From an uncultured virus (IMG/VR IMGVR_UViG_3300025865_000001) (lineage: Duplodnaviria; Heunggongvirae; Uroviricota; Caudoviricetes): 64,000 nt of DNA. The notes below the pieces were generated by a model. It was given only the letters and a program-made list of their open reading frames with translations. It did not search any database and was not told where the DNA came from. The position numbers were made by a program, and so were the translations under genes. Within the stretch, counting starts at the first letter, position 1. Every line of letters begins with the position of its first letter. The stretch lies in the IMG/VR virus record IMGVR_UViG_3300025865_000001; one strand, written 5' to 3'. Shown in pieces: positions 8,950 to 23,119 of the stretch.

Positions 8950-9255
8950 ATGGAAAACCCCATAGTTATTAACATTTTACAAAGAAATTTAGATATCAGA
9001 AAAAATCTCTCAGTATTATTTGACGAGACGACGGACTCACTGGAATACGGTTGGGGTCGCTGGCAAGACGAAAGAGAATATGAGGATATTAACGACTATG
9101 CCCAGCTATTTACGAAGGCAATCGAAAAGTCAGGATTTCAGCTTATCAAAATGACTAAGCGACCCTTTGGATTTATAGTTAAGCCTAAGCCCGAAGTCAC
9201 AATCCAATATTATTGCAATGGCAGAAATGCTGGTTATAAGCAAATAGATAAATAA
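8950..9255 (+). CDS. Hypothetical protein
   Basis: AAGGAG RBS, 101 aa. Confidence 0.75.
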   Translation: MENPIVINILQRNLDIRKNLSVLFDETTDSLEYGWGRWQDEREYEDINDYAQLFTKAIEKSGFQLIKMTKRPFGFIVKPKPEVTIQYYCNGRNAGYKQIDK

Positions 9256-9301
9256 AGTCGAACTGGTGCTGATGAGACAGGTTAAACAGGAGATAAATAA
9301 A

Positions 9302-9574
9302 ATGGAAAAATGTGGTAAAGATTTTTGGATAATGGATGAGGATACGAGTCTTCTTTATATAGCTGAGACTGGTGGTTATTACTTTTTATCAAGCGTTACG
9401 GGTAAAACAACCAAAGTTTACAAAAACATGAAAGAAGCAATAAATGACTACAACAACAAAAAACTTGTGTGGTTAAAATTGACAGACCCGTATACGCAAT
9501 ACGACCCCGATTGGGAAATAGAAGCCCTTTTAGATAAACTTGCTTATGAAACACAGGGAGATAACAATGGATAA
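9302..9574 (+). CDS. Hypothetical protein
   Basis: Start MEKCG, AGGAG RBS. Confidence 0.65.
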   Translation: MEKCGKDFWIMDEDTSLLYIAETGGYYFLSSVTGKTTKVYKNMKEAINDYNNKKLVWLKLTDPYTQYDPDWEIEALLDKLAYETQGDNNG

Positions 9575-9770
9575 GAAAATTTTGATGAAAATTGGACAAG
9601 CACTAAGAACCGCCGAAATAGCGGTTGAAGAAATGAAAAATGCCGTTCCATTTGATGAGAAAGACCCAGAGACGGTAGAATTTGCCGATGAATTAGCCAT
9701 CGTAGATGGCGCACTGGTTGATTTTGACCGTTACCTTTCAAGTTTTTCGTTACCAAAATATAAACAATAA
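9567..9770 (+). CDS. Hypothetical protein
   Basis: Start MDKKI, GGGAG RBS. Confidence 0.65.
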   Translation: MDKKILMKIGQALRTAEIAVEEMKNAVPFDEKDPETVEFADELAIVDGALVDFDRYLSSFSLPKYKQ

Positions 9771-9783
9771 AAAGGAGACTAAG

Positions 9784-9981
9784 ATGACTATACAAGAATT
9801 TTTAGATTGGATTGACGGATGTGGAATTATTTTCACAGATAAAGACCTCGTAGCAGAGGAATTGAGAGATTATGGCATATTACTAACTGATATGATTACC
9901 ATTTCTAAACCGAACGGAGAAATTCTATTAGGCGGAGCACAATTTCAAAAATGGTTAGACAATCAAGACGAAAGCTGTTAG
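9784..9981 (+). CDS. Hypothetical protein
   Basis: Start MTIQE, AAGGAG RBS. Confidence 0.65.
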   Translation: MTIQEFLDWIDGCGIIFTDKDLVAEELRDYGILLTDMITISKPNGEILLGGAQFQKWLDNQDESC

Positions 9982-9993
9982 GAGATAATTAAG

Positions 9994-10173
9994 ATGACAA
10001 AATATTGGGTAAGTATGGTTAAATATGCTGGCTTCTACGTGGAAGCCGATACTGAGGAAGAGGCTGAGGAAAAAGCCGAATATGTGCCAGAATCAGAATT
10101 TGAGTTCAGCGCGATGCAAGACGGTGGAGGGTGGGAAGTTTCATCTGTTACACCAGACTCAGAGATTGATTAG
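9994..10173 (+). CDS. Small acidic hypothetical protein (59 aa)
   Basis: Read by hand: AGGAG RBS, MTKYWV...VEADTEEEAEEKA. Confidence 0.65.
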   Translation: MTKYWVSMVKYAGFYVEADTEEEAEEKAEYVPESEFEFSAMQDGGGWEVSSVTPDSEID

Positions 10174-10177
10174 CCTC

Positions 10178-10206
10178 TTGACAAAATAAATCAAATCGAT
10201 TATAAT
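10178..10206 (+). promoter_or_regulatory. Consensus sigma70 promoter upstream of the RNA cluster
   Basis: TTGACA-17-TATAAT. Confidence 0.9.
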
Positions 10207-10300
10207 GTTTAAGTAGTTAGGAACGGGGAGGCAAGCATATAAGTTTGAGGTTGGCTCATTCCCCCCTTGCTGAAAAGTCCTAACTACCATTAAAAACTTT

Positions 10301-10383
10301 GTGTGGTTGCTGGAGTGGTTAATCAGCCCTCGCTGTAAACGAGGTGACTTCGGTCTTCGGAAGTTCGAATCTTTCACCGCACA
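10301..10383 (+). tRNA. tRNA-Tyr(GTA)
   Basis: Acceptor GTGTGGT/ACCGCAC, anticodon arm CCTCG-CTGTAAA-CGAGG, long variable arm, T arm GGAAG-TTCGAAT-CTTTC; no encoded CCA. Confidence 0.9.
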
Positions 10384-10387
10384 CAAA

Positions 10388-10797
10388 AGGGAAGTAGGCT
10401 GGCAACCGTAGGGTAATCCTGTAGGCAGGAGATGGTGGTGCAACTCCACGCTAGCTGAAACCCTTCCGTTTGACTTATAATTTTTGGGAGGTCGGGCTAA
10501 AACCCCATCCTTTAAAGAGTATCTCAACGAAACTTAGGCACATGACCATGAAACGTACTAAGCGGATTAATCCGTAAACGGCTAAATAAGCGTGTGGGCT
10601 TGCATAAATAAGTGTGATGGAGTTTCTGAGAAAGTTTCATAGGACAGTGGCTGAGGAGGCAAGCATAAACCAACAGCACTATACCTTAAGGTCGTCTGAT
10701 GAAATTAAAGAGATTTTGGCTGAGAAGCACACCAATTCGATGCCCCTGTTAATTCTCGGAGGCCGTTGACATCCTTCGAGAATTATAGGGGATTTTT
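10388..10797 (+). ncRNA. Putative structured non-coding RNA(s) including a tRNA-like cloverleaf
   Basis: GC-richer stretch without a credible ORF, with several hairpins; cloverleaf at 10397-10456; ends in a long terminator hairpin. Confidence 0.5.
10743..10797 (+). terminator. Long hairpin terminator
   Basis: CCCCTGTTAATTCTCGGAGG / CCTTCGAGAATTATAGGGG followed by ATTTTT. Confidence 0.75.
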
Positions 10798-10842
10798 GTA
10801 CCAAATTGTTACATTCAAAAAGGATAAACAAAGGAGTATACA

Positions 10843-11001
10843 ATGAATGTTAGAGATACCAAAGAGTACAAGGAAATGACACAAAGCCGGATGGGTCAGC
10901 TTACCTACATGGAAGCCGACTCAGAGGTAGAGCAATTGGCATTCTGGCAGTATATTGTAGACACCAGAGCCTACCAATGGTTTGTATATATATTCTTTTA
11001 A
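10843..11001 (+). CDS. Small hypothetical protein (52 aa)
   Basis: Read by hand: AAGGAG RBS, MNVRDTKE... Confidence 0.45.
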   Translation: MNVRDTKEYKEMTQSRMGQLTYMEADSEVEQLAFWQYIVDTRAYQWFVYIFF

Positions 11002-11124
11002 AGATACTGATTAAAGAATAAAGATTAAAGATTAAACTTGCAGGAGTATTTTTATTTGTTTTAACTTGCAATGTGTGATCTTTTATGTTATAATCTTTTT
11101 ATCAAACAATACAAGGAGATAGAA

Positions 11125-11442
11125 ATGAAAAACATTAATCCGAAAAATATGGGACTTAAGTCCTATAAGACCCAAATCAGCGTGGTTGGTAATAAGACCG
11201 AAATTCGTTATCAAGGCAACTTGATCGCCACATATGATAATCGATTTTTGACCATTGATAATTGTGGCTGGAAGTCCAAAACAACCAAAGAACGACTTAA
11301 TATAATTTTGGACTACTACAATATTGATTTTAGTATTATCCAACGTGATTGGAAATGGTATCTCATTAACGACAAAACCAAAACAGGAGAAAGGTTCTTT
11401 GGAACAGCTCGATTTTTAGATGGGAAATTGGTAAGCCCGTAA
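11125..11442 (+). CDS. Hypothetical phage protein
   Basis: AAGGAG RBS, promoter TTGCAA-17-TATAAT (11066-11094), GWKSKTTKERLN motif. Confidence 0.75.
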   Translation: MKNINPKNMGLKSYKTQISVVGNKTEIRYQGNLIATYDNRFLTIDNCGWKSKTTKERLNIILDYYNIDFSIIQRDWKWYLINDKTKTGERFFGTARFLDGKLVSP

Positions 11443-11446
11443 AATA

Positions 11447-11474
11447 GAAAATACCCGAAAGGGTATTTTTTTTT
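11447..11474 (+). terminator. Rho-independent terminator
   Basis: AAAATACCC-GAAA-GGGTATTTT followed by a T-run. Confidence 0.85.
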
Positions 11475-11479
11475 ATTAA

Positions 11480-11702
11480 ATATTTTTGGTTATTAAATAT
11501 TTGTGGTTATCAATTTTTTCTGGTTATTAATTTTGGTTATCAGTTTTTATGGTTATGAATATTTAGTTATCCAATAATCTTGGTTACAAAATATTTATGG
11601 TTAATAATTTTGGTTATGAAATATTTTTGGTTACAAATATAGATTTTTGGTTATCAAATATTTCTGGTTATATTTTTTTGGTTATAAATTTTTGGTTATG
11701 AA
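11480..11702. repeat. About 14 irregularly spaced T-rich TGGTTA(T/C) motifs
   Basis: Directly visible; 2-3 more copies at about 2745-2780. Confidence 0.85.
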
Positions 11703-11877
11703 AAACGATATAAAATTGCATACCTGACTGCAATTTTGGCTTAATTGCATATGCGTGCATATGTAATACACTTGATTTGAGATATATAATCATTATTTAA
11801 TACTTGACAATCATATAGGATTAGAGTATAATGATTGAAACATTGAGCACCATCACAACGATAAGGAACAACAAAAA

Positions 11878-12144
11878 ATGATTAATAGAATCTTACACTT
11901 TTCAGCCAAAAATTGTCCAACAAGTTGGGTGGTTGTCAAATGGCTTTTAACTGATAAGGCACTGAATAAGATGATGCGGAAATATCTGGAGAAAAACAGT
12001 TATCCATGTTATTATGATTTTTTGATGGACTACGAATTAGAGGGGATTTTAACACCAGATGACCAATTATTTGATGCAGCAGGAATTAACTTTGATGAAA
12101 TCGATGATATGTTTGAATCAATAAAAAGGATTTTACATCTATAA
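11878..12144 (+). CDS. Hypothetical protein
   Basis: 88 aa, own TTGACA-17-TATAAT promoter (11804-11832), AAGGA RBS. Confidence 0.65.
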   Translation: MINRILHFSAKNCPTSWVVVKWLLTDKALNKMMRKYLEKNSYPCYYDFLMDYELEGILTPDDQLFDAAGINFDEIDDMFESIKRILHL

Positions 12145-12571
12145 AATGCCCCTTTTATCTTGTTTTTTGCTCGTTTTGGGGCTTATTTCATGGATATTTG
12201 CTGGAATAAATAAATAACATTTAATTCAAAATAATACGTCTGGGCTAAGATTGCTGATGTATTTTTTTGTGCTAAATTATAATATGATTTGGATTTATAT
12301 ATTCTTATCTGTTTGGGCAAAAATTCCACGTGATCCAGAAATAATTTTGTGTTATAGCATTTATTTTAAGATAATCCAATTTTGCTTGGGTGTTATAGCG
12401 GATTCCTGTACAAATTTATTTGTTATATGCAAAGGTTCGTTGAATCCAGAACAGAACCGGTGTTATACGCGGAGTTCGATACTTTCACTGATGTTATATG
12501 AAACTTTTGGGAGTCCCTACAGCTTGCGGTGTTAAGTATACGTAATTCCTGATAATTGAAGTATACCACAT

Positions 12572-12736
12572 TGGCACGAATCTTGCAAGGTTTGGCACGA
12601 TTCTTGTACAACACGGGCCCGTGAAAAATTTTATATCATATATCTTATTTGGCACGATTCTTGCAACGATCTCAGATCTGAAATCCTGGCACGATTCTTG
12701 CAACGCAGCTGGCCGCCTGGTGGCACGATTCTTGCA
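12572..12736 (+). promoter_or_regulatory. Five direct repeats matching the sigma54 -24/-12 consensus
   Basis: TGGCACG-A(A/T)TC-TTG(C/T)A at 12572, 12593, 12650, 12687 and 12721; four are perfect. Confidence 0.7.
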
Positions 12737-12871
12737 ACCAACAGCCACCTGGGAAATAATTAATATATAAATAGTATTAATTCAATTAAGATAATAATTG
12801 TCATATATGAACCAGTCAGATAATATATCAATTAATATAAATTTAGTCGTGTATTAGGCCATACCAAGACA

Positions 12872-13195
12872 AATTAATTTTAATTATTATGATAATTATT
12901 AAACTTATTAAAAAAATCAGGATCAGGAAATTAATTTTAATTATTATTATAATTATTAATAATATTAAAAATATCAGATCCGTGATTAATTTTAATAATT
13001 ATGATATTTATTAATAATATTAAAAAATTTCAGGATCAGGAAATTAATTTTAATAATTATGATATTTATTAATAATATTAAAGTTTTAAAGCAGCCATTA
13101 TTTTAATTATTATAATATTTATTAAAAGAATGTAATTATTTTAGGATCAGATTATTTTAATTATTATTATATTTATTAATAATATTAAAATCTTG
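12872..13195. repeat. Six tandem ~55-bp extremely AT-rich units
   Basis: ATTAATTTTAATAATTATGATATTTATTAATAATATTAAAA-like core, often followed by a GATC-containing linker; partial copies near 13393 and 13497. Confidence 0.85.
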
Positions 13196-13546
13196 ATTCT
13201 CCATCGAGGAAGATTTATAAAATTATCAAATTTCAACGAGCAAATCGCCCAAATTCAATAAAATTTTACAATAATGAGTCGTTATATCACTTAACAGAGA
13301 ATCGCGATTTTAAGCCTATTTTAAGCCACCTGGAGGGTTTTAGCCTATTCTATCATTATAAGTAGACTAATTAAACCATTTAAAACCAATGTATTTTATA
13401 TTATTATGATATTTATTAAAATAATAATAGAAAAGTAGCCAGGGAGTATATATATCAATTAATATAAATTTAGTCATGTATCACCTGGACCGCAAATATT
13501 TTATATTATTATGATAATTATTAAATTAAGGCCTCCGCTGGAGGCT

Positions 13547-13646
13547 GAACACTGGTAAACCTCGAACACTGGTAAACCTCGAACACTGGTAAACCTCGAA
13601 CACTGGTAAACCTCGAACACTGGTAAACCTCGAACACTGGTAAACC
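13547..13646. repeat. Perfect 17-bp tandem repeat, about 5.9 copies
   Basis: GAACACTGGTAAACCTC x5 plus a 15-bp partial copy, no spacers. Confidence 0.95.
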
Positions 13647-13773
13647 GCTTAAAACCGTTAAAATATCAACGAGGAAAAAACATTATACAACGAGGGAAAA
13701 AGACCTTGACTCTGTTATAATTATGTATTGACGGAATCCTCCGCCAAACCGCTTCAAGAAAGGAAGCCAAAAA

Positions 13774-14037
13774 ATGAAAGCCCAAATGTTTGCAGTGAAA
13801 AATTTTATCAGTGAAGAAATTGTACCGATCCCCGTCGAGGCAAACCGCCGATCCTTCGGAATGCCCTCCACCGCAGAAACAACCCCGCTTGAAATAATCG
13901 AACCGCTTGAAGACCAGATGGTAATACTCTCCGCGGAACTTGAAAAATTATCTTCCCAATGGCAAATTTTAGACGCCAAACGCCACTATGAACTAATTAT
14001 GAACTTCAAATCCCACCTACTAAACCAGAACTATTAA
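13774..14037 (+). CDS. Hypothetical protein
   Basis: AAGGAAG RBS; extended -10 TGTTATAAT at 13713. Confidence 0.65.
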   Translation: MKAQMFAVKNFISEEIVPIPVEANRRSFGMPSTAETTPLEIIEPLEDQMVILSAELEKLSSQWQILDAKRHYELIMNFKSHLLNQNY

Positions 14038-14058
14038 ACCAGAAAAGAGACAAAAAAC

Positions 14059-14721
14059 ATGGAGAACCAAGCATTAAAGACGTTATCAAGTATCAAGGTT
14101 TGGAACATCGAGGTAAGCGATTATCAGGTAAGAATCGCCCTCTCCAATGCCACTAATATTTTAATCACCATGGAGGCAGAATGCTCCGAAGATTTGTATT
14201 TTAAGACCGACGACGATTTAAGACCAAGCGGTAAAGGAAGACTAATTGACATTGAACTAAGTGAAGGAAGCCGATCCTATAAAGACGAAGACGAAGACGA
14301 AGACGATTTTAATGAATCCAACCGAAATATTTTAGACTCCGCCTTCCTCCGAATAATCACCGACGAAGAGACGTTCACAATTTGCGCTTATAACGCCCAT
14401 AATGGATATTATGAAGGTTTTAAAATCCACTGCGCAATCGAACATTTGACGCTGGAGGCATGGAGGCAAATTAATGATCCAACCCCAGAAACCGCCGACC
14501 CCGACCAATTAACGCCAAGTGAAACCAGCCTATTAACCGAAGCTTGCTTAATGGCAAAAGAGATTACAAGAAACACATCAACCCCTACCATCCTTGAGAT
14601 TAAGACCAGTAAAGAAGATGGTTTAATATCAAAAATTTTAGTACACCCAAGCGAATCGGTTTTAGACCTTAATAATATCCAGCGCCACCAAAGACTCATG
14701 AAGTATTATGATGAAAGGTAA
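14059..14721 (+). CDS. Hypothetical acidic protein
   Basis: 220-aa ORF with YNAHNGYY motif. Confidence 0.7.
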   Translation: MENQALKTLSSIKVWNIEVSDYQVRIALSNATNILITMEAECSEDLYFKTDDDLRPSGKGRLIDIELSEGSRSYKDEDEDEDDFNESNRNILDSAFLRIITDEETFTICAYNAHNGYYEGFKIHCAIEHLTLEAWRQINDPTPETADPDQLTPSETSLLTEACLMAKEITRNTSTPTILEIKTSKEDGLISKILVHPSESVLDLNNIQRHQRLMKYYDER

Positions 14722-14725
14722 AAAC

Positions 14726-16243
14726 ATGGAAACCCAAATTTTGAAGACTCAGGAAATATCAGGAAAAACTGGAGCGTATAATTTTATCGAACCAGAGCCA
14801 ACCGTTGATTATTTGACCGAAAAAATTGTAATGGCAATCCGCGAAAGTATTTTAGACTCCGATGTATTGAACTATTATGCACTCCGAGACCTGATTAAAA
14901 TCACCGGAATCACCGATGAAGAAGGTAAACCCAAGTTCTTCAAGCGTTTGCAAAAAGCCTATAAAGCCTCCACTGGAAATAAGCTTCCAGAGGAATTTGG
15001 AGGAATCGTTGGAAACGCCTATAAACAAGCCACCACGAGAGTCACCGTCCCACTATGGTATCAAGTTGAGAACGATATCCAGAACATCGGAGGAGGCTTC
15101 GGCAATAATGGGAGCTGTTGGTTTGGCTATGATGCATGTTATTGTCACGCTCCAAGAATTTTAGAAGGAAGTGATGGAGTCGGAATCCTAATTTATAACA
15201 ATCAGCGCCAAGACCATGAAGACGGAATCGGAAGAATTTGGGGTGTAAACACTCCGGAAGGTATCGCTTATTTTAACCCGTATATTGACTTATACGGAAG
15301 CGGAATCAGCAGAAACAAAGTAGACGACATTAAATGGGAGATATTCCAAGACCTAATAGCAACCGAATTAATGAGTCTCAAAAAAACCGCAAGAGACGAA
15401 TATCAAAACCTTGACGGCAAAAAATTTGTGGTTATGGAAACCAACCTCGATGGGAGCCGTATATATGTAAACAATAATCGAGGAGCGATTATCACCGACA
15501 AGCCCGAAGAAGTATCAAGCTGTTATCACCCATTCGAAGACTCCGATTATTCATATCTCACTTGCCAGCAGTGCGGAAAAGATGTAGATGAAGATGAAGC
15601 CGTATATAATGAAGACGGAGAACCTTATTGCGAATCATGCTACGAAGAAATCTTCGAACACTGCGAACACTGCGAGACGGAGATAATTAAACGATATGCC
15701 AACCAGACTGAAGAAGGCTTCATTTGTGAAGATTGTACCAGCGAGCATTATACGCAATGCTCCGAATGCAATGTATTTTACAAGAATGAAGACATCGAAG
15801 AGACCTCCAGCGGAGAAGCCGTTTGTCCAACATGCCAAGAAAGATACTTCTATACATGCGAAGAATGCGGAGCAATTGAAAGAAACACGAAGGCTAATAT
15901 AATCCAACATGCCAACTATACAGACTCGGTTTGTGATGAATGCCTTGAAGAGTACACAACCGAAGAAGAAAAATTAACCTTAATAGCTGGAGTAATCTCC
16001 AAGATAATTGAAGACCAAAAGACCTCCAATTATAAAATGAATATCAGATTTGAAGGAAGCTTCCAGACAATTGACCGAAGCGGAAAATATTATAAAGACC
16101 AAGATATAACCGACATAATCGAAAACTGGAGAAGGAACAATCGAGAAGTAGAAGTTATCAGCATAACCAAAGGTTTTAAAATCATAACTGATAAATTTAT
16201 AAGAGACCCAAACTGGAGGCTAATAGAAGTTGAAGTAAACTAA
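14726..16243 (+). CDS. Hypothetical protein with tandem CxxC zinc-ribbon repeats
   Basis: About 8 CxxC pairs in the C-terminal half; start METQ (alternative 14708). Confidence 0.75.
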   Translation: METQILKTQEISGKTGAYNFIEPEPTVDYLTEKIVMAIRESILDSDVLNYYALRDLIKITGITDEEGKPKFFKRLQKAYKASTGNKLPEEFGGIVGNAYKQATTRVTVPLWYQVENDIQNIGGGFGNNGSCWFGYDACYCHAPRILEGSDGVGILIYNNQRQDHEDGIGRIWGVNTPEGIAYFNPYIDLYGSGISRNKVDDIKWEIFQDLIATELMSLKKTARDEYQNLDGKKFVVMETNLDGSRIYVNNNRGAIITDKPEEVSSCYHPFEDSDYSYLTCQQCGKDVDEDEAVYNEDGEPYCESCYEEIFEHCEHCETEIIKRYANQTEEGFICEDCTSEHYTQCSECNVFYKNEDIEETSSGEAVCPTCQERYFYTCEECGAIERNTKANIIQHANYTDSVCDECLEEYTTEEEKLTLIAGVISKIIEDQKTSNYKMNIRFEGSFQTIDRSGKYYKDQDITDIIENWRRNNREVEVISITKGFKIITDKFIRDPNWRLIEVEVN

Positions 16244-16261
16244 ACTTAAACCACTGTTATA

Positions 16262-16292
16262 CCAGCTGGAGGATTTTACCGCCTCCAGCTGT
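16262..16292 (+). terminator. Hairpin / probable terminator
   Basis: CAGCTGGAGG..CCTCCAGCTG inverted repeat just after the stop codon. Confidence 0.6.
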
Positions 16293-16795
16293 TATGCTTT
16301 AAAAAAGTGAGGCACCAGAGTCAGCGCGTTAAATTGTATTTTAGCTGATTAGAATTTTAAAACGCTTGAATTTTAACGCTTTAATCAGCCAACGAATTTT
16401 AACGAACCTTGCCAGCTTATACCGCCCCACCTTGCCATAATACTATATTATAGCAAGAAAAAACGCCAATACCCCCATTTTACACGCCAAAACCCACCAA
16501 AAAATCCGCGCCCAATAAAGCACATTTATTCACCCAATACCAATTTTTCAAATCCAAAACCCAATCAAAACTTTTTTTAATTTTTTTATCTTTTTTATCA
16601 TATTTATCATATAAACTACTTCCTTATTTTACACGAACTCTACTGATACCCTTTTGACACCATCCCCCACAAATCCCCACTTCTATACACTAATTTTCCA
16701 GGATATACCTTGCACCTTTCTTTAAGCATCCTAATCGCTTTTGTGATATAATAGCCATGTTTTCAACATGCAATCACATATTTTATTTTTACTAC

Positions 16796-16824
16796 TTGAC
16801 AACCCCTAAAATCTCTGCTATAAT
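16796..16824 (+). promoter_or_regulatory. Consensus sigma70 promoter for paralog array block 1
   Basis: TTGACA-17-TATAAT with TG extension. Confidence 0.9.
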
Positions 16825-16844
16825 CTACCCATAAGGATAGAATA

Positions 16845-17069
16845 ATGAGAAATGAAATTATAGAAAAAAATGAGACCGTCATAATGAAAGGTGCAGGTAC
16901 TACTATGACCAATAGCTATCGTGGAATGTATGCCCGTTTAATAGCACCATTCAGTTCTCAATTTGCAGGTGTAATAGATGGCAAACGTATTGTTTTTCAA
17001 ACATGGGAAATTCTGTTGAGCACCGGTGAGAAAACTCTTGCACGTATGATTACTACATGGTTGGATTAG
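16845..17069 (+). CDS. RNEILE-family small protein 1
   Basis: MRNEIIE...QTWE. Confidence 0.85.
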   Translation: MRNEIIEKNETVIMKGAGTTMTNSYRGMYARLIAPFSSQFAGVIDGKRIVFQTWEILLSTGEKTLARMITTWLD

Positions 17070-17070
17070 A

Positions 17071-17307
17071 ATGATAATACGAAACGAAATTCTAGAACCC
17101 AATCAAGTAATCTTTCTGAAATCTCCATATACCTGTACACCTTATAACAGGAATCATGCTGGAGAATGTGTAACCTTAATAGCCCCGCTTACTACTCGGA
17201 TAGACACCCTTGCTGATGGGTTAGCTCAAGTTCAAACCTGGGAAGTCAGATTGGCTAATGGAAGAGAAATTCTTGCCCGTTTGGTTCATTGGTTAGATAA
17301 GGACTAG
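17071..17307 (+). CDS. RNEILE-family small protein 2
   Basis: RNEILEPNQ...QTWE. Confidence 0.85.
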   Translation: MIIRNEILEPNQVIFLKSPYTCTPYNRNHAGECVTLIAPLTTRIDTLADGLAQVQTWEVRLANGREILARLVHWLDKD

Positions 17308-17535
17308 ATGAGAAATGAAATCATAGAGGCTAATCAATCTATCTTATTAAAAATTCCAATTACCAGCACATCATATAATAACGATGGACAATGTGTTATC
17401 TTAATAGCCCCATACAGTGCTATTATGTCAGATTTCTTACATGGTGAGCGAGTTCATATTCAGACATGGGAAGTACGACTACCTGATGGCAAGAAGACAA
17501 TTGCCCGAATAATAGATTGGTTAGGAAAGAGTTAG
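17308..17535 (+). CDS. RNEILE-family small protein 3
   Basis: MRNEIIEANQ...QTWE. Confidence 0.85.
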   Translation: MRNEIIEANQSILLKIPITSTSYNNDGQCVILIAPYSAIMSDFLHGERVHIQTWEVRLPDGKKTIARIIDWLGKS

Positions 17536-17536
17536 T

Positions 17537-17761
17537 ATGAGAAACGAATTATTTGAACCCAATGAAGTCATATTCCTTGAATATTTAAAAAATTCTGCAA
17601 CTTCATGTTTTGCTAATCAAACTGTTATCTTAAGAGAGTCAGTTAGTCCAATTGTTGCTGACAAATTGAATGGCAACCTTATCTTTCGTCAGGGATGGAT
17701 AGTAACACTTCCTGATGGTAAAATGGCTGGAGTTAGGCTTATCAAAGAAAGAACAGCATAG
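17537..17761 (+). CDS. RNEILE-family small protein 4
   Basis: MRNELFEPNE. Confidence 0.85.
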   Translation: MRNELFEPNEVIFLEYLKNSATSCFANQTVILRESVSPIVADKLNGNLIFRQGWIVTLPDGKMAGVRLIKERTA

Positions 17762-17765
17762 CACA

Positions 17766-17972
17766 GTGAGAAACGAAATATTTGAGCCGAATCAAACTGT
17801 TCTTGTAAAGATATTTTCAATCACGAATATCGTTCCAAGAAATGTTCACTCAGCAATACTCATAAAACCTATGAGAAATGTATGTCATAGTATCATTGGT
17901 AATTATCAAGATTGGAATATGCAATTAGATAATGGTATAATTACAATAATGAGAATGATAGTAGATAAATAA
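17766..17972 (+). CDS. RNEILE-family small protein 5
   Basis: GTG start, RNEIFEPNQ. Confidence 0.8.
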   Translation: MRNEIFEPNQTVLVKIFSITNIVPRNVHSAILIKPMRNVCHSIIGNYQDWNMQLDNGIITIMRMIVDK

Positions 17973-17974
17973 CA

Positions 17975-18238
17975 ATGCCAAATTGTCTCGATAAGAAAAG
18001 AAACGAAATTATAGCTCAAGGAGAATATTACCCGAACTTTGAACGTTATGGTATTCATAGCGATAAAATAATAAATCTTGTCAAATTGGAAAGGTTAGAC
18101 AGAGGTTCTCCGAGTACCTATAAATATGACAATTCAGATTTTGTCCATTACTCTTGGTGGCAAGTTATTTATTCAAATGGTTATAATGGTTCAATACCTG
18201 TTGTAGATATTATTGACATAGAAAGAATAGAGGACTGA
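17975..18238 (+). CDS. RNEILE-family small protein 6
   Basis: RNEIIAQGE. Confidence 0.8.
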   Translation: MPNCLDKKRNEIIAQGEYYPNFERYGIHSDKIINLVKLERLDRGSPSTYKYDNSDFVHYSWWQVIYSNGYNGSIPVVDIIDIERIED

Positions 18239-18239
18239 A

Positions 18240-18530
18240 ATGTTATACAATGAAATATGTGAGGTTGGACAACTGGTTGCTTTATTCGATAGTTCTATCT
18301 CTAACAGAGACTTCAAACGTCTTGTTCTATTAGTCAAACCAACAGGTGATACCTTTATGCATATATACAATGGTGATAATTATAAACTTCAAGAATGGCG
18401 GTATACTAATCCTGATGGTAGTACTGGACATACTTATCTTAGTTTGGGCAAAGTAAAACCACTACGTTTTGAATATGCGCCATCTGCTGCCCTTATGAGT
18501 GATTATACTTATGCATTTACATCAGCATAA
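18240..18530 (+). CDS. RNEILE-family small protein 7
   Basis: NEICEVGQ...LVLLVKP. Confidence 0.85.
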   Translation: MLYNEICEVGQLVALFDSSISNRDFKRLVLLVKPTGDTFMHIYNGDNYKLQEWRYTNPDGSTGHTYLSLGKVKPLRFEYAPSAALMSDYTYAFTSA

Positions 18531-18559
18531 TCATATTGAATTAATAAGGATTGATAACA

Positions 18560-18850
18560 ATGCAAAATGAAATATTCGAGTCTGGACAATATGTGCGTAT
18601 GTTTGCAGTTATTCTTACACAGCAGGAATTTGAACAAGTAGTTTTACTAGTTAGTCCAGATGCGCCCTCATATATACATCGTGCTTATCCAAACATATCT
18701 TATGATGTTCAAGTATGGAATTATAAGAATTTACATACTGGTAAAATGCACCACACATTATTCTGTTTAGGAAGACACCTTGATACTGTTCAAGTTCATG
18801 TCAATTCAAGTAATAGTTCAACATCTTACACCTTTCACTATCCTACCTAA
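18560..18850 (+). CDS. RNEILE-family small protein 8
   Basis: MQNEIFESGQ. Confidence 0.85.
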   Translation: MQNEIFESGQYVRMFAVILTQQEFEQVVLLVSPDAPSYIHRAYPNISYDVQVWNYKNLHTGKMHHTLFCLGRHLDTVQVHVNSSNSSTSYTFHYPT

Positions 18851-18876
18851 TCATATCGAATCGATAAGAGTCAAAT

Positions 18877-19176
18877 ATGCTTCATAATGAAATCTTAGAA
18901 TCTGGACAATACGTAAGTCTCTTTAATGATATTTTATTAGCAAAAGATTTTCAGAGACTCGTTCTCTTAGTAAAACCTGTAAGTACGGTTTTTATACATC
19001 ATTATGGTTCATTAGATTATCGTCTTCAAGAATGGTCATGTGATGAAGTACAACCTTATCACAGCAGATACTTTTTTTGTATAGGTCAAGTAGAACCAAC
19101 AATAGTATATACACCCCATATCACATATACAACGAACACTACTAATGTTCCTTTCACTTGGGACATTCGTGCTTAA
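18877..19176 (+). CDS. RNEILE-family small protein 9
   Basis: MLHNEILESGQ...LVLLVKP. Confidence 0.85.
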   Translation: MLHNEILESGQYVSLFNDILLAKDFQRLVLLVKPVSTVFIHHYGSLDYRLQEWSCDEVQPYHSRYFFCIGQVEPTIVYTPHITYTTNTTNVPFTWDIRA

Positions 19177-19734
19177 GCACCCAGAATCATTCCTCTGCCC
19201 AAAATCGGGCTTAAATTCTTATTCAACTATCACATTCGATAACTTATCTATGCATGATGTCAATCGTTTCTTTTAAGCCTGTTTTACAATCAGTAATTAT
19301 ATACCAAATTTTAGCTCGTATCGAATCATGTCAGCAACTGGTATTCTAAACTCCATATCAAAATCAATCCTCTGACTAAAATCAGCCTTAAATTCTTATA
19401 TATATAGTACATCTGAATAAGTACTCGTATTTATCTTTTGGTATTGAATTTAGTGCCATTTTAGGTTACTGAAAAATTATTGATTTGCTTTACCCCTTAA
19501 TGTTTAATCCGTTATCTTTTAATCCTTATTCTTTATGTTTATTTTTAATGTATACATAGATACTATGTTAAAGATAATCTTATCAGTTAGATACTATATC
19601 TTTTAATCCTTATTCTTTATTTTTTAATTCTTAATCTTTTAATTACTTATCTTTTAATCTTTAATCTTTATTCTTTAATCAGTATCTTTAAAAGAATATA
19701 TATACAAACAGCAATTTATCTGATTACAAACATC

Positions 19735-19762
19735 TTGACAAAGTAATAAAAAGGTGTATAAT
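19735..19762 (+). promoter_or_regulatory. sigma70 promoter for paralog array block 2
   Basis: TTGACA-16-TATAAT; ATG 9 nt after the -10 box. Confidence 0.8.
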
Positions 19763-19771
19763 CATTAGTAT

Positions 19772-20011
19772 ATGAAAAATTCTTTATGCAGAAACGAAAT
19801 TCTAGAACCTGGAGAAATTATAAACGCCTATCATACATTTGATTGGGGTGGTCAATTTCTTGGAATAGTTAAACTTGTAAGACTTTCTGACACTAATGGA
19901 TATGCTGGGCGTATATATCATACATGGAAAGTAATTCCTATGAATGATTATACTAGAGAAATGTATACGACAATATTGCCCGTTACCATTACGCCTATTA
20001 TAGATGATTGA
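19772..20011 (+). CDS. RNEILE-family small protein 10
   Basis: RNEILEPGEIINAY. Confidence 0.85.
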   Translation: MKNSLCRNEILEPGEIINAYHTFDWGGQFLGIVKLVRLSDTNGYAGRIYHTWKVIPMNDYTREMYTTILPVTITPIIDD

Positions 20012-20025
20012 GAATAGGAATAATA

Positions 20026-20256
20026 ATGCCACACTACTATAACTATCGCGAGGGTGTACGAAGAAATGAAATTTTTGAGGTTGGTCAAGTTGTATATACT
20101 TGCCAGGATAGTAGTCAGCGTTCTGCCAAATGTAAAACAATTCTTCTTATGGAAGTGTCAGAGGACTTTTGGTTTGGAAAAGATATAGATGGGGGATATG
20201 GGGTTACATGGCATCCTGATAAACTCAGTCCTATCATACCAATAATTGACACATAA
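20026..20256 (+). CDS. RNEILE-family small protein 11
   Basis: RNEIFEVGQ. Confidence 0.8.
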   Translation: MPHYYNYREGVRRNEIFEVGQVVYTCQDSSQRSAKCKTILLMEVSEDFWFGKDIDGGYGVTWHPDKLSPIIPIIDT

Positions 20257-20308
20257 GATTGTGAATGACAATGGCTAAAATAATACACTTACAAATGGAG
20301 GTATAATA

Positions 20309-20539
20309 ATGTCAAATACTTTATATAGAAATGAGATTTTAGTATCAGGCGAGATTATCAATGCCTATGCATATTTTGAATGGGATGGCAGATTCCTTGG
20401 AAGTGTTTGCCTAAAAGATAAGCGCTATGAGTCTGGGAATAAACAATCATGGATGGTAGATTACATAGATGGTATGCAGAATGCTACATACAAAACATCA
20501 ATACCAGCTCAAATAATACCAATTATAGATATAGGATAA
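20309..20539 (+). CDS. RNEILE-family small protein 12
   Basis: RNEILVSGEIINAY. Confidence 0.85.
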   Translation: MSNTLYRNEILVSGEIINAYAYFEWDGRFLGSVCLKDKRYESGNKQSWMVDYIDGMQNATYKTSIPAQIIPIIDIG

Positions 20540-20543
20540 TGCC

Positions 20544-20783
20544 ATGCCCTTTAGAGATATCAATACCAAAGTACAAAGGAATGAAATTCTAGCGGTTGGT
20601 GAATGCATTAATGCCTATGCTACTACTCATTGGAGTGGCAGATTGATTGGTAATATAAAATTATTACGTCGAGTTAATCCCACTGTTTATCAAGAAGAAT
20701 GGTGGGTTGAATACATTACGGGGCATGGAAGTCTTCGATATACTACGACTACACCAGAGTCAGTACCCACGATAGGCAGTTGA
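20544..20783 (+). CDS. RNEILE-family small protein 13
   Basis: RNEILAVGE; close paralog of member 15. Confidence 0.85.
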   Translation: MPFRDINTKVQRNEILAVGECINAYATTHWSGRLIGNIKLLRRVNPTVYQEEWWVEYITGHGSLRYTTTTPESVPTIGS

Positions 20784-20784
20784 A

Positions 20785-21012
20785 ATGCAAAAACAATTGA
20801 ACAATGAAATATTACAGTCTGGACAAATCGTTACACTTAATCGGAGCGAAATTAGAGATGTAGGAAATATGGGTTGCGGCATATTAAAAGATTACATTGG
20901 TAAACATAGCGGGAATATAGAAGTGTGGTCAATATGGTGGTCATTTAATGGTATGGAAAATGTTTTTGGATTTCTTTCACCTTCACCAATAGAACCCGTT
21001 AAACCAGAATAG
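20785..21012 (+). CDS. RNEILE-family small protein 14
   Basis: NNEILQSGQ...VWSIWWS; close to member 16. Confidence 0.85.
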   Translation: MQKQLNNEILQSGQIVTLNRSEIRDVGNMGCGILKDYIGKHSGNIEVWSIWWSFNGMENVFGFLSPSPIEPVKPE

Positions 21013-21022
21013 GAATATTATA

Positions 21023-21265
21023 ATGCCAGATGTCTTTACATATAACAAAACTTTACAACGAAATGAAATTCTAGCAGAAGGTGAATTGATTAATGCTTAT
21101 CATACTAGTCACTGGACAGGTAAATTGCTTGGAAATATAAAATTATTGCGACGTGTTAATAAATACGGTAATCAAGAAGATTGGCATGTTGAATACATCA
21201 CTGGTGATGGGAATACTACTTATCACACATCTACGCCTGAAACAATACCTAACATAGAGGGCTAG
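21023..21265 (+). CDS. RNEILE-family small protein 15
   Basis: RNEILAEGE. Confidence 0.85.
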   Translation: MPDVFTYNKTLQRNEILAEGELINAYHTSHWTGKLLGNIKLLRRVNKYGNQEDWHVEYITGDGNTTYHTSTPETIPNIEG

Positions 21266-21266
21266 A

Positions 21267-21503
21267 ATGCAAGAAACTTCTAACAACGAAATACTTGAAG
21301 TTGGACAAATCATTGTGGTATATCGAAATGATAATAATGTGAGATGTAAAAATAGTAGTAGTGATGGTTATGCCATATTGAGAAAGAAATTATATGAAAA
21401 TCACAATCGTCAGGTTTGGTCAATATGGTGGTCTACTATAAACGAAGAGACTTGCGCCAGTGTTGTTCAACCAAAACCATTGAAACCTATTCAACCAGAA
21501 TAA
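21267..21503 (+). CDS. RNEILE-family small protein 16
   Basis: NNEILEVGQ...VWSIWWS. Confidence 0.85.
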   Translation: MQETSNNEILEVGQIIVVYRNDNNVRCKNSSSDGYAILRKKLYENHNRQVWSIWWSTINEETCASVVQPKPLKPIQPE

Positions 21504-21513
21504 AAGTATCATC

Positions 21514-21738
21514 ATGAAACAGATAACATGCCGAAATGAAATTTTTGAAGAAGGACAAATTATACCTGTTCAAAAATACCGCGACTGGAGTGGTGGGGTT
21601 ATTCGGGTTATCAAACTGCTTAAGAAATATGAAGAACCAATGATCGTAGAATGTTGGATAGCAGAAGAATTGAGTTCTGGTCGGCATATGACCTGGCAAC
21701 CTTTTACGATATTTGCAGTTGATAAGATATATAACTGA
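21514..21738 (+). CDS. RNEILE-family small protein 17
   Basis: RNEIFEEGQ. Confidence 0.85.
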   Translation: MKQITCRNEIFEEGQIIPVQKYRDWSGGVIRVIKLLKKYEEPMIVECWIAEELSSGRHMTWQPFTIFAVDKIYN

Positions 21739-21751
21739 CACAAGGAGAAAA

Positions 21752-21991
21752 GTGAAAGAAGTTTTTCGAAACGAAATACTTGAAAGAGGACAAATAGTTC
21801 TTTTATATTATGCTATTAATTGGCAGGGAACTATTAGGGGTGTTGGTGAATTAGTAAGCACCGTTGAATGTGAAACTCGTCTAACAGAACTTTGGACTGT
21901 TAGTATTCAGGACGAAGACTTTATAAAATGGTCGATGCTCAATCCCAACATCTTGACAAAAGACTTGATGAGGCATATAATAAATGCATGA
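21752..21991 (+). CDS. RNEILE-family small protein 18
   Basis: GTG start after AAGGAG; RNEILERGQ. Confidence 0.85.
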   Translation: MKEVFRNEILERGQIVLLYYAINWQGTIRGVGELVSTVECETRLTELWTVSIQDEDFIKWSMLNPNILTKDLMRHIINA

Positions 21992-22218
21992 AAACAATAC
22001 GAAATGAAATCTTAGAGGCTGGACAGGAAGTTATTATGTACATGGACACCGATTGGCAAGGTAAAATCGGCGGTGTGGCGAGACTGATAAAACAGGTTGA
22101 TTACTCTGACCATAATACTGTGCGATGGGAGATTATTGCCAAGAATGTTATTCCACCAGTACCTCTATTAGTTAGAAATTGGTGGTTCGGTATCCTAGAT
22201 AGAACCCGATTGGATTGA
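21988..22218 (+). CDS. RNEILE-family small protein 19
   Basis: MKTIRNEILEAGQ. Confidence 0.85.
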   Translation: MKTIRNEILEAGQEVIMYMDTDWQGKIGGVARLIKQVDYSDHNTVRWEIIAKNVIPPVPLLVRNWWFGILDRTRLD

Positions 22219-22219
22219 A

Positions 22220-22453
22220 ATGACCTTTATCAGAAATGAAATTTTGGAAGTAGGACAGGAAGTCCTATTGTATACTAGGTCGCAATGGAGAGGGGAAATT
22301 AGGTGCATGGGTACGTTAGTATGCAAATTGGAAGGTGGCTCTGAAAGTCCATCTGAACTTTGGAGAATTATTCCAGCAGATAATGGGTGGTTACGCACAT
22401 GGTGGATAGGCAATCCCAATATGTATGATAAAGTATTGAGTAGTGAAATATGA
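22220..22453 (+). CDS. RNEILE-family small protein 20
   Basis: RNEILEVGQ. Confidence 0.85.
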   Translation: MTFIRNEILEVGQEVLLYTRSQWRGEIRCMGTLVCKLEGGSESPSELWRIIPADNGWLRTWWIGNPNMYDKVLSSEI

Positions 22454-22695
22454 GAAATGAAATTTTGGAAGCGGGGCAAGAGGTTATACTATATATATAT
22501 ACTAATTGGCGTGGTAGAATTAGGGGTACTGGAATACTGGTCAATAAACTAGAAACCTCTGGTCTTGGTTCAGAATTGTGGAGAATTACTGGTATTGATA
22601 ATATAGATACTGAACACTTTATAGCACGCGGAGATATTTGGTGGCTTGGAAAGGTTGATGGTTTGGATGAGAGCAATGTTAAAGCCAAGGAATGA
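22450..22695 (+). CDS. RNEILE-family small protein 21
   Basis: MRNEILEAGQ. Confidence 0.85.
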   Translation: MRNEILEAGQEVILYIYTNWRGRIRGTGILVNKLETSGLGSELWRITGIDNIDTEHFIARGDIWWLGKVDGLDESNVKAKE

Positions 22696-22912
22696 AATTT
22701 TAGAATCTGGACAAGAGGTTGTGCTCTATCATGATACTGCATGGGTAGGCGATATTCGATGTACTGGTGTATTAGTTAAAAAATTAATAGGTCACAGTAG
22801 TTGGGAGGAAGAGTGGGAAGTTATTCCAGACGATAGTTGTTGCTCAGAGACATGGTGGCTTGGGAGTATTCTTCCTATTCAAAAGGATAACAATGTTGCA
22901 ACCAAGGAATGA
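22676..22912 (+). CDS. RNEILE-family small protein 22
   Basis: MLKPRNEILESGQ. Confidence 0.85.
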   Translation: MLKPRNEILESGQEVVLYHDTAWVGDIRCTGVLVKKLIGHSSWEEEWEVIPDDSCCSETWWLGSILPIQKDNNVATKE

Positions 22913-23111: not shown

Positions 23112-23119
23112 GATAACTA

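What the first reader, a model, noticed from the sequence alone, without database searches (positions are those of the whole stretch)
12572..12736. Five tandem sigma54 (-24/-12) consensus sites in a non-coding phage region
Seen: TGGCACG-N4-TTGCA four times and TGGCACG-N4-TTGTA once, same orientation, within 165 bp, with no credible ORF for about 1 kb downstream and no enhancer-binding protein gene in the window. Established: this is the RpoN promoter consensus, and RpoN holoenzyme binds it as a stable closed complex until activated. Inference: a DNA decoy for sigma54 holoenzyme, a roadblock or anchor during DNA entry or replication, or a sensor of host state. It could equally be a site for a phage protein that happens to match.
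Basis: partly seen in the sequence, partly recalled or inferred. Interest (0 to 1): 0.78.

Follow-up and report, generated by a model that had tools for sequence, protein, structure and literature searches.

The report
Conserved sigma-54 site array in phage
A soil phage carries five perfect docking sites for its host's sigma-54 RNA polymerase in a gene-free control region; a related phage keeps them and many unrelated phages have similar arrays, but their purpose is still unknown.

Summary
Five co-oriented TGGCACG-N4-TTG(C/T)A sites lie at 12572-12736 (0 expected by chance). They sit in a 1.63-kb ORF-free hub (12145-13773) of a ~122.5-kb siphovirus from peat and soil that encodes a YonO-like RNA polymerase.

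They are very probably real sigma-54 sites, not a look-alike operator:
- The 19-mers are 86% alike, while their flanks are 15-27% alike.
- A relative, G412 (proteins 45-90% identical), keeps three sites at the syntenic place with 37/36-bp spacing. One has different inner bases but intact GG/GC.
- 117 IMG/VR stretches in 66 sequence families (one of them this phage) carry arrays of 2-12 such sites with variable inner bases.

No enhancer-binding protein or sigma-54 gene was found in this phage or in 19 other array-bearing records.

Function is unresolved. My best reading (0.4) is a loading pad of activator-gated tandem promoters firing rightward into an 86%-AT repeat block. Rivals are a non-transcribing sigma-54 sink or roadblock, and an origin component. 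The flanking operons have their own consensus sigmaA promoters.

The host is unknown, so its rpoN status is untested. Five literature searches found no description of such arrays.

The parts
12572..12587 (+). sigma-54 site 1, TGGCACGAATCTTGCA
   Evidence: exact match. It has no counterpart in relative G412.
12593..12608 (+). sigma-54 site 2, TGGCACGATTCTTGTA (-12 element TTGT, the weakest copy). It starts 21 bp after site 1 and is followed by the 12-bp palindrome CACGGGCCCGTG (12612-12623).
12650..12665 (+). sigma-54 site 3, TGGCACGATTCTTGCA(ACG). It aligns with G412 site 1.
12687..12702 (+). sigma-54 site 4, TGGCACGATTCTTGCA(ACG). It aligns with G412 site 2, which has inner bases GGAAC. The 37-bp unit 12650-12686 is present one extra time in contigs of runs X5 and X7.
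12721..12736 (+). sigma-54 site 5, TGGCACGATTCTTGCA(ACC). It aligns with G412 site 3 (aGGCACGATTCTTGCAACC). By the usual rule its start site would fall near 12746-12748.
12145..13773 (.). ORF-free multi-array hub that contains the sites
12349..12538 (+). Six co-oriented (G)TGTTATA-type motifs, 30-41 bp apart, directly upstream of the sigma-54 sites. G412 has four CTGTTAAAATA motifs at the matching place.
12757..13204 (+). Block of 86% A+T with six ~55-bp units, each holding a 33-nt quasi-palindrome. Two more copies lie at 13392-13424 and 13497-13529. Run X3 lacks one unit.
13547..13646 (+). 5.9 exact tandem copies of the 17-mer GAACACTGGTAAACCTC (iteron-like). Run X5 lacks four units. G412 has five copies of an unrelated 13-mer at the matching place.
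13713..13721 (+). Extended -10 promoter-like TGTTATAAT, 53 bp upstream of the first downstream gene (13774)
11464..11703 (+). Neighbouring array of ~15 units of ~17 bp around TGGTTAT. Besides the sigma-54 array, it is the only hub DNA that aligns with G412.

Best explanation
The five motifs are genuine recognition sites for the host's sigma-54 RNA polymerase holoenzyme. Selection keeps them as one module of a conserved, gene-free, multi-array control hub of this phage.

The mechanism is inferred. After the DNA enters the cell, holoenzyme docks on the array as stable closed complexes. Because the phage encodes no activator, firing depends on a host enhancer-binding ATPase. The array therefore acts as a poised, host-state-gated battery of tandem promoters, a loading pad that points rightward. 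Transcripts would run into the 86%-AT repeat block and on toward the long module of small early-type genes. Several sites in tandem raise the chance that a scarce holoenzyme is captured.

Shown: the motif, its non-random occurrence, its conservation in a relative against unalignable flanks, the absence of a phage activator, and the co-orientation with downstream genes.

Inferred: that holoenzyme binds, that the sites fire, and what the transcript does (leader, non-coding RNA, or activation of an adjacent origin-like AT-rich region).
For: - Perfect consensus five times, with 0 expected.
- The 19-mers are 86% identical pairwise, against 15-27% for their flanks. The sites are therefore maintained, not recently duplicated.
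- Relative G412 shares 72 ORFs at 45-90% identity. It has three sites at the syntenic position with 37/36-bp spacing. Between the two hubs only this array (77% over 107 nt, E 7e-16) and the TGGTTA array align. One G412 site has changed inner bases but keeps GG/GC.
- All sites in both phages point the same way as every downstream gene.
- Both phages carry 4-6 TGTTA(W)A motifs just upstream. In G412 these read as the good extended -10 TGTTAAAAT, which suggests a promoter battery.
- A distant YonO-like provirus (G410) has two identical sites 44 bp apart, followed by a Shine-Dalgarno sequence and a 335-aa gene. That is a classical promoter layout.
- In other phages the distance from the last site to the next same-strand ORF of >=50 aa has a median of 158 bp (51 of 65 family representatives had such an ORF in the held flank).
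- The only published precedent found for a sigma-54-like phage promoter is phage YuA (passage in PMC10914365).
Against: - The flanking operons do not need the array. A perfect TTGACA-17-TATAAT lies at 11804, an extended -10 at 13713, and six more perfect sigmaA promoters lie on the + strand.
- The nearest downstream gene is 1038 bp away. That is at the upper tail of the distances.
- A 21-bp spacing in this array, and a 25-28-bp mode in other arrays, look too tight for several polymerases to fire in series. The size of the footprint is recalled, not tested.
- Across other phages the arrays are not significantly co-oriented with the next sizeable gene: 30 of 50 and 16 of 25 to 23 of 42, all p>0.2. 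One contig (L040) has face-to-face overlapping sites repeated three times.
- No activator gene and no recognisable activator binding site were found.
- A third relative (G008:C1, YonO 63-64% identical) has no site in 67 kb that include the syntenic interval. 0 of 38 more distant YonO-encoding records has an array. The element is therefore dispensable.
- The host is unknown, so rpoN is unverified.
Confidence: 0.4

Rival explanations
1. Binding-only array. The sites capture sigma-54 holoenzyme (or free sigma-54) as closed complexes that never fire. As phage DNA replicates, the array acts as a sink that lowers host sigma-54-dependent responses, or as a protein roadblock or insulator between two early transcription units.
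For: - No phage activator, and none over the curated cut-off in 0 of 19 other array-bearing records.
- The flanking operons have their own perfect sigmaA promoters.
- Dense spacing here (21-57 bp), and a 25-28-bp mode with examples at 18 bp elsewhere.
- Face-to-face sites in L040.
- No significant orientation bias relative to genes.
- Copy number varies in the population: an extra 37-bp unit in runs X5 and X7. This is expected if dosage matters.
- Perfect DnaA boxes cluster beside the arrays in 5 of 65 families: 18 within 47.8 kb near arrays against 1 in 188 kb away from them. This fits hubs that gather sites for several host proteins.
- A decoy role has been suggested for non-promoter sigma-54 sites in E. 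coli (passage in PMC4591121).
Against: - In both relatives the sites are strictly co-oriented with the downstream genes, which a pure sink does not require.
- G410 shows a standard promoter-gene layout.
- Overlapping sites add no capacity for holoenzyme.
- No benefit of lowering sigma-54 activity is known for this unidentified host.
- The array is absent from relative G008:C1.
Confidence: 0.27
2. Origin component. The hub is the phage's replication origin or another cis-acting replication or partition centre. The sigma-54 array supplies polymerase binding or transcription next to an AT-rich unwinding region, as promoters do at some phage origins.
For: - The hub has iteron-like exact tandem 17-mers, an 86%-AT 450-bp block right after the array, and several other repeat families.
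- G412 keeps this architecture with different iterons.
- 38 of 65 other array loci show further 9-mers in three or more copies nearby (no shuffle control). The only one shared between families is the DnaA box.
- Recalled, not tested: the T7 primary origin has tandem promoters plus an AT-rich stretch, and T4 oriF/oriG have a promoter plus an unwinding element.
Against: - No DnaA box with <=1 mismatch in 12100-13800.
- The replication genes lie about 45 kb away on the other arm.
- No initiator-like gene is adjacent. The 87-, 220- and 511-aa neighbours have no such family.
- The cumulative GC-skew minimum is at window 5276, not at the hub.
- Other arrays show no general AT-richness downstream (44 representatives, p=0.09 against the locus mean).
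Confidence: 0.15
3. Operator look-alike. A phage-encoded dimeric DNA-binding protein recognises the quasi-palindrome GCAnGAnTCnTGC inside the 16-mer, and the likeness to the sigma-54 consensus is incidental.
For: - The inner bases are nearly fixed within this phage (ATTC four times, AATC once).
- The 13-nt core matches its own reverse complement at 10 of 13 positions (read directly from the sequence).
- The conserved unit extends three bases beyond the consensus (AAC).
Against: - G412 site 2 changes the inner bases (GGAAC) and weakens the palindrome, but keeps TGGCACG and TTGCA exactly.
- 66 sequence families over GC 0.29-0.64 keep GG/GC with free inner bases.
- No protein family is shared by the neighbourhoods of more than 3 of the 66 families.
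Confidence: 0.08
4. Promoters for the phage's own YonO-like single-subunit RNA polymerase (26516-29317).
For: - The phage encodes such an enzyme (PF05183, 1e-13).
- The promoter of SPbeta YonO is undefined (passage in PMC5467207).
- Two other array-bearing records (G410, G412) also encode one.
Against: - 17 of 19 other array-bearing records lack PF05183, including all 8 that are at least 90% complete.
- 0 of 38 other YonO-encoding records has an array.
- Relative G008:C1 (YonO 63-64% identical) has no site.
- SPbeta itself has none.
Confidence: 0.03

Closest known systems
Canonical enhancer-dependent sigma-54 (RpoN/SigL) -24/-12 promoters of bacteria
   Same: The recognition sequence is identical (TGGCACG-N4-TTGCA) with exact GG-N10-GC spacing. 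A logo of 435 phage-array sites shows the usual flanking preferences.
   Different: Here there are five sites within 165 bp, on a phage, with no activator gene, no recognisable upstream activator site, and no gene within 1 kb. Bacterial promoters of this class are, as recalled, single sites paired with a dedicated activator. The Clostridiales consensus quoted in PMC6615313 (passage) is TTGGCATNNNNNTTGCT, slightly different at two positions.
Sigma-54-like promoter of Pseudomonas phage YuA
   Same: A phage reported to use host sigma-54 as well as sigma-70 for transcription (passage in PMC10914365 citing Ceyssens 2008).
   Different: The YuA record AM749441 has no match even to the loose pattern TGGYAY-N5-TTGC. 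It is a single weak site and not a consensus array.
Non-promoter (intragenic) sigma-54 binding sites of E. coli
   Same: Holoenzyme bound in an inactive state at sites without an obvious transcript. A decoy role has been discussed (abstract and passage of PMC4591121).
   Different: Those are scattered single chromosomal sites, mostly inside genes. This is a dense intergenic array on a virus, conserved between two phages.
Tandem host-polymerase promoters at phage control regions and origins (T7 A1-A3; T7 primary origin with two promoters and an AT-rich stretch), recalled and not tested
   Same: Several co-oriented promoters packed in a non-coding region, followed here by an AT-rich block.
   Different: Those use sigma-70 or phage polymerase promoters spaced about 100 bp apart, which fire without an ATPase activator.
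Titration loci and iteron hubs for host proteins (E. coli datA, P1 oriR with DnaA boxes and iterons), recalled and not tested
   Same: Arrays of high-affinity sites for a host DNA-binding protein in a non-coding hub. In 5 of 65 other phage families, DnaA-box clusters sit beside the sigma-54 arrays.
   Different: No such locus is known for a sigma factor. This window has no DnaA box in the hub.

Membership tests
sigma-54 -24/-12 promoter | GG and GC dinucleotides exactly 10 bp apart within TGGCAC-N5-TTGC(A/T) | tested here: met
   Five of five sites. One has TTGT instead of TTGC.
sigma-54 -24/-12 promoter | Conservation of the GG/GC elements with freedom in the inner bases among relatives | tested here: met
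   G412 has three syntenic sites, one with different inner bases. Unrelated arrays have variable inner bases.
sigma-54 -24/-12 promoter | The host encodes sigma-54 (rpoN/sigL) | not testable with these tools
   The host is unknown: peat and soil metagenomes only. The MAG that holds relative G008:C1 has an rpoN, but its GC (0.41-0.53) differs from the phage contig (0.35), so the link is weak.
sigma-54 -24/-12 promoter | A cognate enhancer-binding AAA+ activator with upstream binding sites | tested here: inconclusive
   No PF00158 in the phage. A host activator cannot be examined. The six TGTTATA motifs 40-230 bp upstream are candidates only.
sigma-54 -24/-12 promoter | Transcription start about 12 nt downstream of the GC, with a transcribed product | not testable with these tools
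   No RNA run holds the region. No gene lies within 1038 bp.
iteron-type replication origin | Tandem iterons plus an AT-rich unwinding region | tested here: met
   5.9 exact copies of a 17-mer, and an 86%-AT block.
iteron-type replication origin | Host DnaA boxes and/or an adjacent initiator gene | tested here: not met
   No DnaA box with <=1 mismatch in 12100-13800. The neighbouring genes have no initiator family.
YonO-type phage RNA polymerase promoter | The motif co-occurs with the polymerase across relatives | tested here: not met
DNA decoy / titration array | Multiple high-affinity sites without transcriptional output, and a dosage effect on the titrated factor | not testable with these tools
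   Multiplicity and copy-number variation are seen. Output and titration need experiments.

The most novel reading that the evidence does not exclude
Arrays of consensus sigma-54 sites are a widespread, undescribed class of phage cis element. There are 66 sequence families in IMG/VR (65 besides this phage) with 2-12 sites each, no phage activator, and often other host-factor site arrays such as DnaA boxes alongside. Phages would use them to capture the host's sigma-54 polymerase as inert closed complexes. The purpose would be either to drain the factor and blunt sigma-54-dependent host responses, or to tie a phage decision (early transcription or origin firing) to the activity of host enhancer-binding ATPases.
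Probability: 0.3. Interest if true: 0.85.

Novelty: new variant of a known kind. Interest (0 to 1): 0.74.

Why it matters
Sigma-54 is the one bacterial sigma factor whose holoenzyme sits on DNA without firing until an ATPase acts on it. Phages are not known to exploit this property. The only precedent found is one weak sigma-54-like promoter in phage YuA. A conserved five-site array here, and similar arrays in 65 other viral sequence families, point to a recurrent phage strategy aimed at this factor. It could be a host-state sensor, a strong gated promoter battery, or a sigma-factor sponge. The element is short, portable and directly testable by gel shifts, footprinting, in vitro transcription with a constitutive activator domain, and titration assays. 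It could also serve as a tool for titrating or recruiting sigma-54 polymerase.

Tried and rejected
- **DNA similarity to cultured phages:** none for the hub nor for the largest other array family.
- **Rfam on 9000-26000:** only the tRNA.
- **RNA evidence:** no RNA holder listed.
- **Reads laid:** contigs only. 88 differences were not shown, so I cannot say that variant strains carry no changes inside the sites. One X7 piece (12491-12686) has a single difference, at 12505.
- **Close relatives through flanking proteins:** the 511-aa and 220-aa genes found only the phage itself in viral and metagenome contigs. The protein search gave two 50% relatives on short contigs that I could not fetch.
- **Host identification:** the endolysin scan of genome contigs returned a related phage contig binned in a MAG with mismatched GC. 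No host call was made.
- **Bacterial control:** the tandem pattern was not found in 401 genomes of one phylum. Given the unknown size of IMG/VR, this does not show phage specificity.
- **Half-turn phasing of spacings:** Rayleigh R is 0.30 (n=155) and 0.27 (n=123, unique per family). The uniform null, run at n=123, has a 95th percentile of 0.19 and a 99.9th of 0.28. This is suggestive only, and the search window biased the spacings.
- **AT-rich DNA downstream of arrays in general:** not supported.
- **A shared neighbouring protein family** (a hidden activator): none in more than 3 of 66 families. Terminase large subunits recur, but without a consistent arrangement.
- **Downstream ORFs of other arrays:** 45 of 49 have no Pfam family.
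- **The 511-aa neighbour:** only unnamed viral clusters.
- **IHF site or -35/-10 promoter inside the array:** none on the + strand.
The window's own assembly and the 124-kb metagenome contig are not held.

Full report
**Observation.** The window holds exactly five matches to TGGCACG-N4-TTG(C/T)A. All are on the + strand, at 12572, 12593, 12650, 12687 and 12721. None of 100 dinucleotide-preserving shuffles produced any match. Four sites end in TTGCA and one in TTGTA. Start-to-start spacings are 21, 57, 37 and 34 bp. The sites lie in a 1.63-kb stretch (12145-13773) without a credible gene. The mechanical ORFs that overlap it have no PHROG family (0 of 7 tested). The next gene with a ribosome-binding site starts at 13774.

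**The organism.**
- Two IMG/VR records (G002, G001) are 100% identical to the window parts they were matched against and overlap at their far ends, giving a circular map of 122,508 bp.
- One arm, on the - strand, carries replication and nucleotide-metabolism genes: PolIII alpha, primase-helicase, ribonucleotide reductase with an intein, RtcB, RNA ligase, three DNA methylases and a tyrosine recombinase.
- The other arm, from window 5104 on the + strand, carries small unknown genes, a YonO-like RdRP-fold RNA polymerase (26516-29317, PF05183) and siphovirus structural genes.
- The portal is about 30% identical to those of large Firmicutes siphoviruses.
- The DNA is found only in peat and soil metagenome runs.
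- Nine perfect TTGACA-N16-18-TATAAT promoters, all co-oriented with the local genes, show heavy use of the host's primary sigma factor.

**The hub.** The sigma-54 sites are one of several arrays laid end to end:
1. About 15 TGGTTAT units (11464-11703).
2. A small gene (11878-12144).
3. Six TGTTATA motifs (12349-12538).
4. The five sigma-54 sites.
5. An 86%-AT block of ~55-bp units, each with a 33-nt quasi-palindrome (12757-13204, plus two later copies).
6. 5.9 exact 17-bp tandem repeats (13547-13646).
7. An extended -10 (TGTTATAAT, 13713), then the first gene.

Contigs of other runs show that array sizes vary in nature. Runs X5 and X7 carry one extra 37-bp unit, which is a sixth sigma-54 site. 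Run X3 lacks one AT-rich unit, and X5 lacks four 17-mers.

**Sigma-54 site or look-alike?** Three lines of evidence favour real sigma-54 sites.
- *Within the array:* the 19-mers are 86% identical pairwise, while 15-nt flanks are 15-27% identical. The sites are maintained in unrelated linkers.
- *In a relative:* G412 (104,987 bp, 72 shared ORFs at 45-90% identity, polymerase 62%) breaks at both contig ends inside the same hub.
  - In window orientation it reads: TGGTTA array, four CTGTTAAAATA motifs, then three sigma-54 sites 37 and 36 bp apart.
  - At the other contig end it has five copies of an unrelated 13-mer, a TTGACA-17-TATAAT promoter, and the homologue of the 511-aa gene.
  - Only the TGGTTA array and the sigma-54 array align between the two hubs (77% over 107 nt, E 7e-16).
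  - Window sites 3-5 pair with the three G412 sites. The middle one has inner bases GGAAC instead of GATTC, with TGGCACG and TTGCAACG intact.
- *In unrelated viruses:* a scan of IMG/VR for two perfect sites 21-51 bp apart found 117 stretches. They fall into 66 DNA-similarity families, one of which is this phage. GC is 0.29-0.64 and arrays hold 2-12 sites. Their inner bases and linkers vary freely, while GG/GC stay fixed.

A phage-specific operator would not be expected to behave this way.

The idea that these are promoters of the YonO-like polymerase fails on several counts:
- 17 of 19 other array-bearing records lack that enzyme.
- 0 of 38 other YonO-encoding records has an array.
- SPbeta has no site.
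- Relative G008:C1 has none in 67 kb that include the syntenic interval.

**What the phage does not bring.** PF00158 (the activator ATPase) is absent from this phage at E<=1. It is over the curated cut-off in 0 of 19 other array-bearing records. Three have sub-threshold generic AAA matches. The sigma-54 DNA-binding domain is over cut-off in 0 of 21 records. Any activity therefore relies on host proteins, and the host is unidentified. The MAG that contains G008:C1 has rpoN, but its composition differs from the phage contig.

**Function.**
- *For gated tandem promoters:* the sites are strictly co-oriented with downstream genes in both relatives. Promoter-like TGTTA(W)A motifs sit just upstream. 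The distant provirus G410 has a classical pair-SD-gene layout. In other phages the median distance to the next same-strand ORF is 158 bp.
- *Against, and for a binding-only array:* the neighbouring operons have their own consensus promoters, and the nearest gene is 1038 bp away. Spacing is tight (21 bp here; mode 25-28 bp and down to 18 bp elsewhere). One contig has face-to-face sites. Arrays are not significantly co-oriented with the next sizeable gene (30 of 50; 16 of 25 to 23 of 42).
- *For an origin-type hub:* the hub has iterons and an AT-rich block. In 5 of 65 other families, perfect DnaA boxes cluster beside the arrays (18 in 47.8 kb near arrays against 1 in 188 kb away).
- *Against an origin-type hub:* this hub has no DnaA box, no adjacent initiator gene, and no support from GC skew.

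I therefore commit only moderately (0.4) to a poised promoter battery or loading pad. A sink or roadblock gets 0.27 and an origin component 0.15.

**Distribution.** The element is accessory. It is present in this phage and G412, and as a pair in G410. It is absent from G008:C1, where the interval between the left arm and the polymerase gene is only about 5 kb and holds a different 24-bp palindromic repeat. It is also absent from 38 more distant YonO-encoding records.

**Literature.** Five full-text searches found no description of sigma-54 site arrays in phages. What I read:
- Passages on YuA (PMC10914365). Its genome has no consensus site.
- Passages on a putative sigma-54-like protein in Pectobacterium phage Q19 (PMC7693777).
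- Passages on the undefined YonO promoter (PMC5467207).
- Passages on the SPBRE/MrpR operator of SPbeta (PMC10516654).
- A passage on the decoy idea for E. coli intragenic sites (PMC4591121).
- A passage giving the Clostridiales consensus (PMC6615313).

No supplements were opened.

**Verdict.** The sigma-54 identity is well supported by comparative evidence. The element is conserved in one relative and echoed in many unrelated phages. Its mechanism remains open between gated promoter battery, sigma-factor sink and origin module.

Noticed in passing
window 11464-11703: Array of about 15 units of ~17 bp around TGGTTAT (10 exact copies; 28 in the window against 15 expected). Besides the sigma-54 array, it is the only hub DNA that aligns with relative G412. 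The binding partner is unknown.
   Followed up: partly
window 12349-12538; L282 161-327 (- strand): Six co-oriented TGTTATA motifs directly upstream of the sigma-54 sites. G412 has four CTGTTAAAATA motifs at the same place. These read as extended -10 elements there, but lack the final T here.
   Followed up: partly
window 12757-13204, 13392-13424, 13497-13529: Eight AT-rich 33-nt quasi-palindromes on a ~55-bp period in an 86%-AT block, bracketed by two copies of a 32-nt repeat (12822-12854, 13449-13481). Copy number varies between metagenome runs.
   Followed up: partly
window 13547-13646; other end of G412 (L287): 5.9 exact 17-bp tandem repeats just upstream of the first gene. G412 has five copies of an unrelated 13-mer at the equivalent place, as expected for iterons that co-evolve with a phage protein. 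A GC hairpin at 13531-13545 reads as a terminator for the - strand.
   Followed up: partly
window 26516-29317: 933-aa YonO-like single-subunit RNA polymerase (PF05183, 1e-13; phrog_8308, 2e-106), 62-64% identical in two relatives. It lies upstream of the structural genes, as in SPbeta.
   Followed up: partly
window 16845-25467: About 34 consecutive + strand ORFs of 63-100 aa (34 tested), none with a credible Pfam family (one 16-bit match far below its cut-off). The stretch holds internal paralogous repeats (20525-21314, 24533-25280). It looks like a host-takeover module and is largely missing from relative G008:C1.
   Followed up: partly
window 10178, 11804, 16796, 19735, 21953, 25503, 49119 (+); 2712, 1591 (-): Nine perfect 12-of-12 TTGACA-N16-18-TATAAT promoters, all co-oriented with the local genes.
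   Followed up: yes
window 10980-11036 and 19653-19709: An exact 57-bp inverted repeat rich in TTAAAGA-type units, in two different intergenic regions 8.6 kb apart.
   Followed up: no
outside the window: L130 6920-7996, 10271-10858, 12867-13895; L131 1987-3126; L130 18355-19278: The phage encodes a short adenylosuccinate-synthetase homologue. It is closest to archaeal-type PurA (4e-63) and more distant from PurZ (2e-13). It also encodes an HD-domain protein, a GMP-reductase/IMPDH-like protein, RtcB and an RNA ligase. Whether the DNA carries a modified purine was not resolved.
   Followed up: partly
L040 / G007:C1 16890-17008: Three 43-bp tandem units, each with two sigma-54 sites face to face and 1 bp apart. 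This arrangement is hard to reconcile with productive transcription.
   Followed up: partly
loci L209, L214, L187, L234, L256: Clusters of 2-6 perfect DnaA boxes within 400 bp of sigma-54 arrays in five unrelated viral sequence families (18 boxes in 47.8 kb near arrays against 1 in 188 kb away).
   Followed up: partly
window 34779-35522; 49221-49865: GIY-YIG-type homing endonuclease genes inserted between terminase and portal and elsewhere. They have paralogues on the other arm, and the ribonucleotide reductase carries an intein with a LAGLIDADG domain.
   Followed up: no
G410:C1 8013-8168 and 95627-95782: Two copies of a 315-aa ORF in a distant YonO-encoding provirus give a sub-threshold match (18 bits, E 1.5e-4) to the RpoN-box part of the sigma-54 DNA-binding domain.
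   Followed up: no
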